From an uncultured virus (IMG/VR IMGVR_UViG_3300035135_002447) (taxonomy: Duplodnaviria; Heunggongvirae; Uroviricota; Caudoviricetes), in the IMG/VR virus record IMGVR_UViG_3300035135_002447: 64,000 nt of DNA; one strand, written 5' to 3'. This document shows positions 18,050-18,619 of the stretch, piece after piece. A program made the position numbers and the translations under genes. Every line of letters begins with the position of its first letter. Positions within the stretch are counted from its first letter, which is position 1. The notes under the pieces are model-generated. The model made no database searches and was not told the origin of the DNA. It saw nothing but the letters and a program-made list of their open reading frames with translations.

Positions 18050-18080
18050 AAAAGCCCGACACAGTTAAGTATCGGGCTTT
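18050..18080 (-). terminator. Intrinsic terminator closing the riboswitch/pqqA/ncRNA cassette
   Basis: AAAGCCCGA...TCGGGCTTTT stem with a T-tract on the minus strand. Confidence 0.8.
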
Positions 18081-18258
18081 AAATTAAAGTGGGTAAAGGA
18101 GACCATCCTTCAATGTGCCGCTGTCAACACTAGGTTTCTAGTCTGGACACATACCTGCCTGCACCTGCTAAGGCGAACCGCTAAGTTCCTTCGACATTGC
18201 CTTAATCCCGTATTGCGAGGATTTATTCAGCCAACCCTTATAACAACGTCTTGTTATA
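18081..18258 (-). ncRNA. Candidate small ncRNA (~180-200 nt) of unknown family
   Basis: No credible ORF; GC-richer than its flanks; bounded by a sigma70-type promoter and a terminator; several hairpins (ATAACAA/TTGTTAT, AATCCtCG/CGGGATT, AAGGA/TCCTT, CAATGT/ACATTG). Confidence 0.55.
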
Positions 18259-18263
18259 TTATT

Positions 18264-18291
18264 AATATAACATCTTACAAATAAATGTCAA
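18264..18291 (-). promoter_or_regulatory. Host sigma70-type promoter
   Basis: TTGACA-16 nt-TATATT with an extended -10 TG and an A-rich UP tract. Confidence 0.65.
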
Positions 18292-18317
18292 CCATTTTTT
18301 TGTATTTTTTTAAGAAT

Positions 18318-18389
18318 TTACTTATTCATTACGTACATAGTAACTTCAAAGCCAAATCTCATTTCTGTAAAAGTTGGTTTAGTCCACAT
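18318..18389 (-). CDS. pqqA: Pyrroloquinoline quinone precursor peptide PqqA (23 aa)
   Basis: Hand translation [23 protein letters not shown] has the W-x-K-P leader and the invariant E-x3-Y core; SD GAAAGGAG upstream. Confidence 0.93.
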   Translation of the reverse strand: [23 protein letters not shown]

Positions 18390-18409
18390 AATGTTCTCCT
18401 TTCACTTAA

Positions 18410-18415
18410 TATTTA
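18410..18415 (-). promoter_or_regulatory. Possible late promoter box (TAAATA) for pqqA
   Basis: ttTAAATAtt ~10 nt upstream of the pqqA SD; the AT-rich context lowers certainty. Confidence 0.5.
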
Positions 18416-18450
18416 AACACAGTACTAAGCAAAAGTCATACGTAAAATCA

Positions 18451-18537
18451 TTAAAATCTAGCAATTATTAGATTAATTTTGTTTATTCGGTGCTGTCTGA
18501 AAAGTCTTTTGTAGCACCAAAGTGTGAAGTTATCCAT
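18451..18537 (-). CDS. 28-aa basic peptide downstream of the glutamine riboswitch
   Basis: MDNFTLWCYKRLFRQHRINKINLIIARF*, with a TAGGAG SD 7 nt before the ATG. Confidence 0.65.
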   Translation of the reverse strand: MDNFTLWCYKRLFRQHRINKINLIIARF

Positions 18538-18560
18538 TACACTTCTCCTATTAAGGTTAA

Positions 18561-18607
18561 GTGCGTTCCTTCGCCTTATGCTACTTCCGTCCCGTAGGAT
18601 GAACGTA
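18561..18607 (-). ncRNA. Glutamine riboswitch (glnA motif / glutamine-I)
   Basis: ACGTTCA-TCC-TACG-GGA-CGGAAGTA-GCATAAGGC-GAAGGAACGCAC matches the recalled consensus CGUUCA..GACGGAAGUAG..CGAAGGAACGC: P1 CGTTC/GAACG, P2 with a cUACGg loop, E-loop GUA/GAA. Confidence 0.88.
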
Positions 18608-18611
18608 TAAT

Positions 18612-18619
18612 TATTTATA
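18612..18619 (-). promoter_or_regulatory. Full T4 late promoter consensus TATAAATA driving the riboswitch transcript
   Basis: TATAAATA 5 nt upstream of the riboswitch 5' end. Confidence 0.75.

What the first reader, a model, noticed from the sequence alone, without database searches (positions are those of the whole stretch)
18050..18619. Compact cassette: late promoter -> glutamine riboswitch -> 28-aa peptide -> pqqA -> ncRNA -> terminator
Seen in sequence: ~570 bp with no entry in the ORF track hold, all on the minus strand, TATAAATA, a glnA-type aptamer, an SD-bearing 28-codon ORF, pqqA, a sigma70 promoter, a structured non-coding segment and one terminator. I see no terminator between the parts. 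Established: glutamine riboswitches sense nitrogen status, and PqqA is the ribosomal precursor of PQQ, cofactor of periplasmic methanol/alcohol/sugar dehydrogenases. Inference: this is a micro-scale host-manipulation module coupling nitrogen sensing and redox-cofactor supply during virion assembly, built only from RNAs and peptides that gene callers miss. I cannot verify whether the combination has been described.
Basis: partly seen in the sequence, partly recalled or inferred. Interest (0 to 1): 0.9.

Follow-up and report, generated by a model that had tools for sequence, protein, structure and literature searches.

The report
Stacked small cassettes behind phage capsid gene
The 570-base gap behind the capsid gene of this giant phage of methanol-eating bacteria really holds a glutamine-sensing RNA switch with a 28-residue peptide gene, a copy of the PQQ-precursor gene pqqA and a free-standing manA-type RNA gene, but these look like separate, already catalogued cassettes stacked in one hot spot, not one purpose-built nitrogen-to-cofactor machine.

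Summary
These are TATAAATA, a glutamine riboswitch (RF01739, 49.2 bits), a 28-codon ORF with a Shine-Dalgarno site, pqqA (PF08042, 44.6 bits), a near-consensus sigma70 promoter, a structured RNA and one terminator. The structured RNA is a shortened manA-family RNA (RF01745, 43.9 bits, below the family cut-off).

Comparison with 80 capsid-gene relatives and about 240 further viral loci shows that the parts come and go independently. Among the 80 relatives, the riboswitch with its small ORF occurs in 8, the manA-like RNA in 26, and pqqA in 3.

pqqA carries its own conserved upstream element. It sits after the switch, before it (insulated by a terminator), or on the opposite strand. The manA-like RNA has its own sigma70 promoter in 40 of 42 loci.

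The switch is most likely a translational ON switch for the small ORF alone. In this window a late read-through transcript across all parts is plausible but not shown.

Against a purely independent reading, switch, small ORF and pqqA recur in 76 contigs. In another phage lineage the two genes overlap or are fused.

Each part has been published, and this scan met the same cassettes before on other DNA.

The parts
19238..20413 (-). Major capsid protein gp23 (context; the cassettes lie in the variable gap behind it)
   Evidence: PF07068 330.3 bits; phrog_138
19187..19213 (-). Hairpin plus T-run behind the capsid gene (capsid-gene terminator; the same palindrome was scored on the + strand)
   Evidence: relatives have a terminator at the same place
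18625..19197 (-). CHAP/NlpC-P60 cell-wall hydrolase gene (TIGR02594-like), probably starting at the ATG at 19161. An insertion between the capsid gene and the cassettes.
   Evidence: Present in 1 of 80 relatives (L005)
18612..18619 (-). T4-type late promoter TATAAATA. The predicted start lies about 6 nt downstream, at the first bases of the aptamer.
   Evidence: A gp55-like late sigma gene lies at 34700-35521. Relatives keep (C)TAAATA 4-5 nt before ACGTTC
18560..18607 (-). Glutamine riboswitch aptamer, glnA type
   Evidence: RF01739 49.2 bits, gathering score 35. Core columns are invariant in 65 phage copies
18540..18563 (-). Expression platform. The 5 nt after P1 (18559-18563) pair with the 5 nt between the Shine-Dalgarno site and the AUG (18540-18544). 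The Shine-Dalgarno AGGAG is at 18545-18549.
   Evidence: Helix paired in 96.9% of cells over 65 distinct sequences; 2 of 5 pairs show changes on both sides. Present in the minimum-free-energy fold
18451..18537 (-). 28-codon ORF, MDNFTLWCYKRLFRQHRINKINLIIARF. It belongs to a family of riboswitch-associated basic micro-peptides with an invariant Cys8.
   Evidence: No Pfam, NCBIfam or PHROG family matches
18390..18454 (-). Upstream element of the pqqA cassette (TTAATGATT ... TGTTTAAATA ... GAAAGGAGA). It is conserved in the T4-like copies whatever their position or orientation; TAAATA lies at 18410-18415.
   Evidence: It is not host-derived: similarity to host DNA starts at the Shine-Dalgarno site
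18318..18389 (-). pqqA, 23 codons, [23 protein letters not shown]
   Evidence: PF08042 44.6 bits; TIGR02107 46.9 bits. The nearest bacterial copies are in Methylophilaceae
18264..18291 (-). Sigma70-type promoter with extended -10 for the manA-like RNA
   Evidence: 11 of 12 matches. A promoter of this form is present in 40 of 42 manA-like segments
18086..18256 (-). manA-family structured RNA, a shortened variant. The predicted free-standing transcript runs from about 18257 to 18051.
   Evidence: RF01745 43.9 bits, below the gathering score of 55.2. Positional homologues pass the cut-off in L044, L071 and L020. 18 of 21 consensus pairs show compensatory change
18051..18080 (-). Intrinsic terminator that ends the manA-like RNA and any read-through from upstream
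18033..18040 (-). Late-type promoter GATAAATA of the next unit
   Evidence: conserved in relatives
17936..18018 (-). freshwater-2 RNA leader, including the Shine-Dalgarno site and AUG of the next gene
   Evidence: RF02980 75.2 bits. Found by an nhmmer profile in 53 of 80 relatives
17543..17941 (-). 132-codon late gene of unknown function behind the freshwater-2 leader
   Evidence: No family matches

Best explanation
The gap is a stack of three self-contained expression cassettes. They have accumulated in the variable hot spot behind gp23 of a T4-like jumbo phage whose host is, by the type of its pqqA, a member of the Methylophilaceae.

Cassette 1 is a late promoter that starts transcription at the first bases of a glutamine aptamer. 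When glutamine is low, the 5 nt after P1 pair with the spacer between the Shine-Dalgarno site and the AUG, and translation of the 28-residue peptide is held down. Glutamine binding releases this helix, so the switch turns translation ON (by analogy with the gifB leader). The peptide itself is the regulated product; its target is unknown. My guess is a host nitrogen-assimilation protein such as glutamine synthetase.

Cassette 2 is pqqA with its own conserved upstream element and a strong Shine-Dalgarno site. It supplies the precursor peptide that the host PqqB-E enzymes consume one-for-one to make PQQ for methanol dehydrogenase. This would keep energy supply going after host transcription fails.

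Cassette 3 is a manA-family small RNA made from its own sigma70-type (early-type) promoter and ended by its own terminator.

In this phage the terminator that normally follows pqqA is missing. Late transcripts from cassette 1 should therefore run through pqqA and the manA RNA to the single terminator. Even so, glutamine would directly gate only the small ORF.

Shown here: the identity of every part, the covariation of the platform helix, and the independence of the parts in relatives. Inferred: transcript starts and ends, the ON direction of the switch, and the functions of the peptide and the RNA.
For: Identity of the parts.

Late promoter:
- 9 of 13 NATAAATA sites are fully intergenic in a window that is 4.0% intergenic.
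- A gp55-like late sigma gene is present.
- The spacing between promoter and aptamer is conserved in relatives.

Platform helix: paired in 96.9% of cells in 65 distinct phage copies, with CG/UA/UG exchanges at two pairs. Sliding the partners drops pairing to 18-57%.

Small ORF:
- The frame is open in 15 of 15 distinct close homologues, and the other two frames are closed in all of them.
- Third-position differences number 1185, against 772 and 709 at the first and second positions.
- 44 distinct family members share an aromatic-x-x-aromatic-Cys start.
- In 77 of 80 viral riboswitch loci an ORF with a Shine-Dalgarno site follows the aptamer.

Independence of the parts:
- Among 80 capsid relatives the switch is in 8, the manA-like RNA in 26, freshwater-2 in 53 and pqqA in 3.
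- Five relatives (L007, L017, L044, L020, L071) have switch, small ORF and manA RNA with no pqqA.
- L150, L157 and L126 have pqqA, then a terminator and a late promoter, before the switch.
- L026 and L027 have pqqA on the opposite strand with no switch.
- All 4 contigs with the window's order have a terminator after pqqA.
- None of 80 other viral pqqA loci has the switch, the manA-like RNA or freshwater-2 within 1.2 kb.

pqqA upstream element: it is shared by the T4-like copies in all three arrangements. It is absent from host pqqA loci, where similarity starts at the Shine-Dalgarno site.

manA-like RNA: 40 of 42 segments carry TTGAC-N15-19-TAnnnT, and a terminator follows where the 3' end is in view. 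18 of 21 consensus pairs show compensatory change.

Host family:
- pqqC is present in 41 of 41 genomes and glutamine synthetase in 61 of 61.
- The glutamine riboswitch is found in 0 of 121 genomes.
- No PqqD and no PQQ-enzyme repeat is found in 5 related, incomplete virus records.
Against: - Switch, small ORF and pqqA in this order recur in 72 + 4 viral contigs. In the 72 the small ORF overlaps pqqA by 11 nt (53 contigs) or 31 nt (11 contigs), or is fused to it in frame (8 contigs). There pqqA can hardly escape control by the switch, so a functional link exists at least in that lineage.
- 8 of 80 viral riboswitch loci have pqqA within 900 nt. This is far more than two rare elements would give by chance, although a shared liking for the site behind the capsid gene could explain it.
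- In this window no terminator separates the parts, so co-transcription is likely. Translation of the small ORF could then affect the stability of the downstream RNA.
- The pqqA upstream element is TTTAAATA, not the NATAAATA form found in front of the other late genes. Its promoter role is unproven.
- No transcript ends were observed. The RNA-library contigs laid on the stretch come mostly from relatives and cannot show starts or ends.
- The window's manA match is below Rfam's gathering score.
Confidence: 0.6

Rival explanations
1. One functional operon. The late promoter makes a single RNA of about 560 nt, and the glutamine switch gates pqqA as well as the small ORF. This could work through translation-dependent protection of the message or through coupling. 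Supply of the PQQ precursor would then follow the cell's nitrogen status during virion assembly.
For: - No terminator lies between the parts in the window.
- The same gene order occurs in 4 T4-like contigs and in 72 contigs of another phage lineage. In those 72 the small ORF overlaps pqqA (64 contigs) or is fused in frame to it (8 contigs), and no promoter-like gap lies between them.
- 8 of 80 riboswitch loci have pqqA nearby.
Against: - In the window pqqA lies 61 nt behind the small ORF's stop and has its own AAGGAG.
- pqqA carries its own conserved upstream element, which travels with the gene in all orientations.
- In L150, L157 and L126 pqqA sits upstream of the switch, behind its own terminator.
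- In L026 and L027 pqqA is on the other strand.
- Five relatives keep the switch and small ORF without pqqA.
- None of 80 other viral pqqA loci has a switch.
- The platform helix covers only the small ORF's ribosome-binding region.
Confidence: 0.25
2. The manA-like RNA is not a free-standing small RNA. It would be a cis-acting leader (a riboswitch of unknown ligand) whose terminator is the expression platform. From the sigma70 promoter it would control early read-through into the freshwater-2 leader and the 132-codon gene.
For: - Rfam and Weinberg et al. 2010 class manA as a likely cis-regulator in 5' UTRs (passages read).
- In most relatives where the 3' end is in view, the RNA lies directly before the freshwater-2 leader and that gene.
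- The terminator follows the last conserved helix closely.
Against: - A late-type GATAAATA promoter lies between the terminator and the next gene in the window and in most relatives, so that gene has its own start.
- In L076 and L014 the RNA is followed by a tRNA, not by that gene.
- In L039 and L126 other sequence follows the RNA.
- I saw no conserved alternative pairing with the terminator, though I did not test for one systematically.
Confidence: 0.1
3. The 28-codon ORF is only a regulatory leader whose translation matters and whose product does not. It would serve, for example, to occlude or expose the promoter or RNA that follows.
For: In L044 and L007 the ORF's TGA stop lies inside the -35 hexamer of the manA promoter (GGTTGAC). 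The peptides are very short.
Against: - The peptide sequence is conserved across lineages whose DNA has diverged. Cys8 is invariant and residues 4 and 7 are aromatic in all 27 aligned members.
- Differences are in excess at third codon positions.
- The family occurs in contexts with no manA RNA and no pqqA behind it.
Confidence: 0.05

Closest known systems
Type-1 glutamine riboswitch in the gifB (IF17) leader of Synechocystis sp. PCC 6803 (Klaehn et al. 2018, PMC6212724; passages read)
   Same: It has the same aptamer family (RF01739) and lies in the 5' UTR of a small protein gene. A short helix next to P1 can pair with the ribosome-binding region. The authors postulate that glutamine melts this helix and allows translation.
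   Different: - The regulated product here is a 28-residue peptide with no DUF4278 or other family match.
- The switch is phage-borne. It was found in 0 of 121 genomes of the host family.
- Transcription comes from a T4-type late promoter.
Glutamine riboswitch of OM43 phage Melnitz (Buchholz et al. 2022, PMC9004378; abstract and passages read)
   Same: It is the same aptamer in a related T4-like phage of methylotrophs. The aptamer, platform and following small ORF are homologous.
   Different: - In Melnitz the switch lies behind the tmRNA gene, not behind gp23, and the paper reads it as controlling the tmRNA.
- I find a 32-codon ORF of the same peptide family directly behind it on the same strand. 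The record annotates an opposite-strand CDS there instead.
- The Melnitz locus fetched here shows no pqqA, and the record holds no manA match.
Viral PqqA of Lake Baikal T4-like Methylophilaceae phages, population VP_266 (Coutinho et al. 2020, PMC7678222; passages read)
   Same: It is a stand-alone phage copy of the PQQ precursor peptide in a T4-like phage of methylotrophs, read as an auxiliary metabolic gene that supports methanol oxidation.
   Different: - That paper also reports a viral methanol dehydrogenase. I found no PQQ-enzyme repeat in 5 related, incomplete records.
- The passages I read mention no riboswitch or neighbouring RNA.
manA RNA motif, RF01745 (Weinberg et al. 2010, PMC2864571; passages read)
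   Same: It is a structured RNA of T4-like phages of aquatic bacteria. The window's RNA matches the full model, and positional homologues pass the family's gathering score.
   Different: - The motif was described as a likely 5'-UTR element or riboswitch candidate.
- Here it has its own sigma70-type promoter and terminator and no ORF inside the unit.
- The window's copy is shortened and scores below the family cut-off.
Cyanophage psbA and similar auxiliary metabolic genes (recalled; no call)
   Same: A phage copy of a host product with high turnover that would run out once host transcription stops.
   Different: The product is a 23-residue peptide consumed as a substrate, not an enzyme or a structural subunit.

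Membership tests
Glutamine riboswitch, glnA type (RF01739) | Covariance-model score at or above the gathering score over the whole model | tested here: met
   49.2 bits against 35, model positions 1-53
Glutamine riboswitch, glnA type (RF01739) | Conserved P1 and core nucleotides (CGUUC ... GGAAGUAG ... GAAGGAACG) | tested here: met
   These columns are invariant in 65 distinct phage copies, the window's included
Glutamine riboswitch, glnA type (RF01739) | An expression platform linking the aptamer to the downstream gene's ribosome-binding region | tested here: met
   The helix of alignment columns 65-69 with 93-99 is paired in 96.9% of cells; two pairs show changes on both sides
Glutamine riboswitch, glnA type (RF01739) | Selective binding of L-glutamine and a glutamine-dependent change in expression | not testable with these tools
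   Needs in-line probing or ITC, and reporter assays
PqqA (PF08042 / TIGR02107) | Profile score above the curated cut-offs | tested here: met
   44.6 bits against 21.1, and 46.9 bits against 20
PqqA (PF08042 / TIGR02107) | The Glu-x-x-x-Tyr pair that is cross-linked to form PQQ (motif recalled from the literature) | tested here: met
   E15-V-T-M-Y19 in the translation. All 80 fetched viral copies keep FEVTMY, but that was the search pattern.
PqqA (PF08042 / TIGR02107) | Placement in front of pqqBCDE | tested here: not met
   The copy stands alone. No PqqD was found in 5 related, incomplete virus records. The host family has pqqC in 41 of 41 genomes. Orphan copies also exist in bacteria, so this does not exclude membership.
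PqqA (PF08042 / TIGR02107) | Conversion into PQQ by PqqB-E | not testable with these tools
   Needs complementation of a pqqA mutant
manA RNA (RF01745) | Covariance-model score at or above the gathering score of 55.2 bits | tested here: not met
   The window scores 43.9 bits (E 1.6e-9 in 1.9 kb) with internal deletions. Positional homologues L044 (79.9), L071 (55.7) and L020 (55.5) pass the cut-off.
manA RNA (RF01745) | A conserved multi-helix structure supported by covariation | tested here: inconclusive
   In 21 positional homologues, 18 of 21 RNAalifold pairs show compensatory change. However, the window's row aligns poorly at its 5' end, and the Rfam pseudoknot was not tested.
manA RNA (RF01745) | Location in the 5' UTR of a gene (cis-regulator) | tested here: not met
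   It has its own promoter and terminator and no ORF between them
T4-type late promoter | A TATAAATA-like octamer upstream of late genes, in a phage that encodes a gp55-type sigma factor | tested here: met
freshwater-2 RNA (RF02980) | Covariance-model score at or above the gathering score | tested here: met
   75.2 bits against 49.9
Glutamine synthetase inactivating factors IF7/IF17 (DUF4278) | Sequence membership of the riboswitch-controlled peptide | tested here: not met
   Neither the 28-residue peptide nor 4 longer family members match any Pfam family. Other phage riboswitch ORFs with YRG repeats do exist.

The most novel reading that the evidence does not exclude
In phages of methylotrophs, a phage-borne glutamine sensor that the hosts themselves lack gates the supply of the PQQ precursor through a conserved Cys-bearing micro-peptide. 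The overlapping genes and the in-frame fusions of micro-peptide and PqqA would then mean that the two products work together. The peptide might, for example, act as an added leader or helper for PqqA processing. The window would be a loosened form of this nitrogen-to-cofactor circuit.
Probability: 0.2. Interest if true: 0.75.

Novelty: new variant of a known kind. Interest (0 to 1): 0.45.

Why it matters
Each part is already catalogued, but the way the parts are built is informative in three ways.

- **What the phage switch controls.** The phage glutamine switch is seen to control a conserved, never-annotated micro-peptide. This differs from the published reading for phage Melnitz, where the switch is said to control the tmRNA.
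- **The manA RNA.** This orphan "riboswitch candidate" turns out here to be a free-standing gene with an early-type promoter and its own terminator. That changes which experiments make sense for it.
- **pqqA.** It is a very common and mostly unannotated phage gene. It sits beside the switch often enough, sometimes overlapping or fused to the micro-peptide gene, that a link between nitrogen status and cofactor supply can be tested directly with reporter fusions.

All of this lies below the size limits of gene callers.

Tried and rejected
**The window's own genome.** It is not held. The nearest record, G001 (19.8 kb), has no match to the cassette.

**Public RNA runs.**
- Four salt-marsh metatranscriptome runs were laid as contigs.
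- Short contigs cover only the manA segment: 18073-18235, 18085-18235 and 18101-18233.
- Others cover the freshwater-2 leader, the 132-codon gene and the aptamer.
- None covers the hydrolase gene or 18415-18536.
- No listed contig bridges the small ORF to pqqA or pqqA to the manA RNA.
- Most contigs have loose ends and come from relatives. The very deep cover on the pqqA coding part (X17 26,589; X18 6,206) has loose ends on both sides and so comes from other pqqA copies.
- Contigs cannot show transcript ends, and DNA can be present in such libraries. I draw no conclusion about transcripts.

**Searches that could not run.**
- The search for related loci with the 23-residue PqqA: query too short. 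Replaced by back-translated DNA patterns.
- Homologue search with the micro-peptide alignment: minimum query length is 40 residues. Dropped, so I cannot say whether the peptide family is annotated anywhere.

**Searches that found nothing.**
- blastn of a manA-like RNA against isolate phages: no match.
- ARAGORN: no tRNA or tmRNA in the window. The structured RNA is therefore not a tmRNA, unlike the RNA next to the Melnitz switch.

**Ideas tested and rejected.**
- That the pqqA upstream element is the host's own promoter carried along. Similarity to 81 bacterial pqqA copies starts only at the Shine-Dalgarno site.
- That the phage carries the rest of the PQQ pathway or a PQQ enzyme. None was found in 5 related records, which are incomplete.

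**A lead only partly tested.** I checked only that the host family has glutamine synthetase (61 of 61 genomes) and lacks the switch (0 of 121).

**Supplements.** I did not open the supplementary files of the papers cited. Additional files of PMC2864571 list manA contexts and may bear on the claim that the RNA is free-standing.
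Full report
**What the window is.** The 64-kb window is the structural module of a T4-like myophage.
- It encodes gp23 (19238-20413, PF07068 330 bits), a prohead protease, a portal protein, baseplate wedge and hub proteins, and a gp55-type late sigma factor (34700-35521).
- Its own assembly is not held.
- Close capsid relatives come from contigs of up to 210 kb. CheckV rates these contigs 28-60% complete, which suggests genomes of roughly 350 kb.
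- DNA runs that hold the stretch are labelled wetland, estuary, marine and freshwater metagenomes.

**The observation.**
- TATAAATA lies at 18612-18619.
- A glutamine riboswitch aptamer lies at 18560-18607 (RF01739, 49.2 bits against 35).
- A 28-codon ORF lies at 18451-18537 with AGGAG 7 nt before the ATG.
- pqqA lies at 18318-18389 (PF08042 44.6 bits against 21.1; TIGR02107 46.9 bits against 20).
- TTGACA-16-TATATT with an upstream TG lies at 18264-18291 (11 of 12 matches).
- A structured RNA lies at 18086-18256 and a terminator at 18051-18080.
- No other minus-strand terminator is found between 18080 and 18620. The spacers fold no better than shuffles.
- The structured RNA matches Rfam manA over the full model. 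It scores 43.9 bits, below the gathering score of 55.2, and has internal deletions.
- Just downstream lie GATAAATA (18033-18040), a freshwater-2 leader (75.2 bits, 17936-18018) and a 132-codon gene.

**The late promoter is credible.** NATAAATA occurs 13 times on both strands, against about 46 expected from base composition by my arithmetic on the frequencies printed.
- Nine of the 13 are fully intergenic, although only 4.0% of the window is intergenic.
- Ten of the 13 lie 20-260 nt upstream of the start of a same-strand ORF.
- The octamer ends 4-5 nt before the ACGTTC that opens the aptamer, and relatives keep this spacing with (C)TAAATA.
- A start about 6 nt after the octamer, as in T4 (recalled), would fall on the first bases of the aptamer.

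**The switch and its gene.** I collected 65 distinct phage copies running from the aptamer to the ATG.
- The 5 nt that follow P1 pair with the 5 nt between the Shine-Dalgarno site and the AUG in 96.9% of cells.
- Two pairs show changes on both sides: CG 48 / UG 11 / UA 3, and CG 34 / UA 21 / UG 6.
- Sliding the partners by 1-3 columns lowers pairing to 18-57%.
- One caveat: I read the helix off one of these sequences.
- The helix fits the model postulated for the gifB leader, in which glutamine melts a short helix next to P1 that blocks the ribosome-binding site (Klaehn et al. 2018, passages read).

The ORF behind the switch is a real gene.
- In 15 distinct close homologues the frame is open and both other frames are closed.
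- Pairwise differences number 1185 at third positions, against 772 and 709 at the first and second positions.
- 44 distinct peptides of 28-38 residues share an aromatic-x-x-aromatic-Cys start followed by a basic stretch.
- Cys8 is invariant in the 27 aligned members.
- No Pfam, NCBIfam or PHROG family matches.
- In 77 of 80 viral riboswitch loci a short ORF with a Shine-Dalgarno site follows the aptamer. The script took the first start codon it met, so some calls are out of phase.
- The ORFs fall into several peptide families, one of them with YRG repeats.

**pqqA.** The peptide, [23 protein letters not shown], is of the Methylophilaceae type.
The titles listed are almost all Methylophilaceae or related Burkholderiales and Nitrosomonadales.
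- Similarity to host DNA covers only the coding part and the Shine-Dalgarno site.
- The host family has pqqC in 41 of 41 genomes searched.
- Five related, incomplete virus records have neither PqqD nor a PQQ-enzyme repeat. The phage therefore supplies only the consumable precursor.

Viral pqqA is common.
- A pattern scan stopped at 120 viral contigs, and all 80 fetched encode a PqqA.
- The gene lies without a gene annotation under it in the isolates Venkman, P19250A and MEP301.
- A viral PqqA was reported for Lake Baikal T4-like phages in 2020 (PMC7678222, passages read).

**Are the parts one unit?** Among 80 capsid relatives (83-92% identity), profile and tblastn searches gave these counts:

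| Element | Relatives with it (of 80) |
|---|---|
| Riboswitch | 8 |
| manA-like RNA | 26 (L026 and L027 look like one phage) |
| freshwater-2 | 53 |
| pqqA | 3 |

Many of these loci are cut by contig ends, so the counts are lower bounds.

The recurrent layout runs as follows:
- capsid gene and terminator;
- (C)TAAATA, riboswitch and small ORF;
- TTGACT promoter, manA-like RNA and terminator;
- GATAAATA, freshwater-2 and the 132-codon gene.

This layout occurs without pqqA in L007, L017, L044, L020 and L071. In L044 and L007 the small ORF's TGA stop lies inside the -35 hexamer.

pqqA appears in three arrangements:
- After the small ORF. This is the case in the window and in 4 contigs, L396-L399. 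All 4 have a terminator after pqqA that the window lacks.
- Before the switch, followed by a terminator and a late promoter (L150, L157, L126).
- On the opposite strand, with no switch (L026, L027).

In all of these, pqqA brings the same upstream element (TTAATGATT ... TGTTTAAATA ... GAAAGGAGA). That element is absent from 80 other viral pqqA loci (0 of 80 have TTTAAATA upstream) and from host loci. None of those 80 other viral pqqA loci has the switch, the manA-like RNA or freshwater-2 within 1.2 kb.

The manA-like RNA has a TTGAC-N15-19-TAnnnT promoter in 40 of 42 segments, some of which are one contig fetched twice. A terminator follows where the 3' end is in view. In 21 positional homologues, 18 of 21 consensus pairs show compensatory change. 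Three of the positional homologues pass Rfam's manA cut-off.

I therefore read the gap as three stacked cassettes, not as one designed module.

**What speaks for a link.**
- 8 of 80 viral riboswitch loci have pqqA on the same strand within 900 nt.
- An exact pattern for the aptamer end, 95-125 nt and then the pqqA start finds 72 contigs. They belong to another lineage, with contigs of up to about 37 kb and a capsid gene that my gp23 query did not hit.
- In those 72 contigs the small ORF overlaps pqqA by 11 nt in 53 and by 31 nt in 11, and runs in frame into pqqA in 8. The next structural gene starts about 10 nt after pqqA.
- In that lineage pqqA must be co-transcribed with the switch-controlled ORF and is probably translationally coupled to it.
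- The adjacency could also arise because both cassettes favour the highly expressed site behind the capsid gene.

For the window, with its 61-nt spacer, its own Shine-Dalgarno site and its own upstream element, I put direct glutamine control of pqqA at about one in four.

**Host context.** The switch was found in 0 of 121 genomes of the host family; the control rang in Synechococcus elongatus. Glutamine synthetase was found in 61 of 61.
- The phage therefore brings a glutamine sensor that the host lacks.
- A glutamine-synthetase-type target for the peptide is possible, but I did not test it.
- The second count sits uneasily with the statement in PMC9004378 that OM43 lacks glnA. I did not test strain H5P1 itself.

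**Literature.**
- No paper in the held library contains both 'glutamine riboswitch' and 'pqqA'.
- Only the Baikal paper links PqqA with viruses of methylotrophs.
- manA has no later functional study in the library.
- 'freshwater-2' together with 'RNA motif' gave nothing.
- This scan met the same cassettes before on other DNA. My tests agree with the notes that call them separate cassettes, and they confirm the note that reports recurrence and overlap.

**Verdict.** The parts are known kinds in a new arrangement, with three useful corrections:
- the true target of the phage switch is a micro-peptide;
- the manA RNA is a free-standing gene here;
- pqqA is a mobile cassette that sometimes comes under the switch.

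Noticed in passing
L001 (Melnitz MZ577097.1) 4003-4172: In phage Melnitz the riboswitch (L001 4003-4051) begins after the Rfam tmRNA matches end (3950 and 3995). A 32-codon ORF of the same micro-peptide family follows on the same strand, starting at about 4074. The record annotates an opposite-strand CDS there instead (4097-4198). The published reading that the switch controls the tmRNA may need revision.
   Followed up: partly
L324-L395 (72 viral contigs): In 8 of 72 contigs the switch-controlled micro-peptide ORF runs in frame into pqqA, giving a 51-residue fusion. The Shine-Dalgarno site of pqqA is kept inside the fused ORF.
   Followed up: partly
L002 2504-2572 (Venkman), L003 2527-2595 (P19250A), hit H4 (MEP301): Intact pqqA copies lie with no annotated feature under them in three cultured methylophage genomes. 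In Venkman the copy is on the strand opposite to its neighbours.
   Followed up: partly
window 17543-18040: The freshwater-2 RNA is here the leader of a conserved 132-codon late gene of unknown function and is preceded by GATAAATA. A profile finds it in 53 of 80 capsid relatives, always in front of that gene where the gene is in view.
   Followed up: partly
window 18625-19197: A CHAP/NlpC-P60 hydrolase gene (TIGR02594-like, 69.8 bits against a cut-off of 70.55) is inserted between the capsid terminator and the cassettes. Its start reads like a lipoprotein signal (my reading). Only 1 of 80 relatives (L005) has it at this site.
   Followed up: no
Methylophilaceae genomes G002-G063: Glutamine synthetase (PF00120) is present in 61 of 61 genomes of the host family, including genomes of 1.3 Mb. 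The Melnitz paper states that OM43 lacks glnA.
   Followed up: partly
L076 4116-4436; L014: In two relatives the manA-like RNA is followed directly by a tRNA gene, not by a terminator and the freshwater-2 leader.
   Followed up: no
window 44676-60767, 7867-15099, 1805-7732: There are very large ORFs of 5363, 2410 and 1975 codons. The two shorter ones match baseplate-wedge PHROGs. The 2410-codon one, whose translation I read, carries many repeats of a motif ending ...SNADLELRANGTG.
   Followed up: no
window 18354-18414 in RNA runs X17, X18: Word depth on the pqqA coding part in salt-marsh metatranscriptome contigs is extremely high (26,589 and 6,206), with loose ends on both sides. This is consistent with very abundant pqqA transcripts from other genomes in the sample.
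   Followed up: no
window 31173-31622: A 149-codon ORF matches homing-endonuclease PHROGs. It lies between the SbcCD-like genes and a 468-codon ORF (29245-30651) that matched no PHROG.
   Followed up: no
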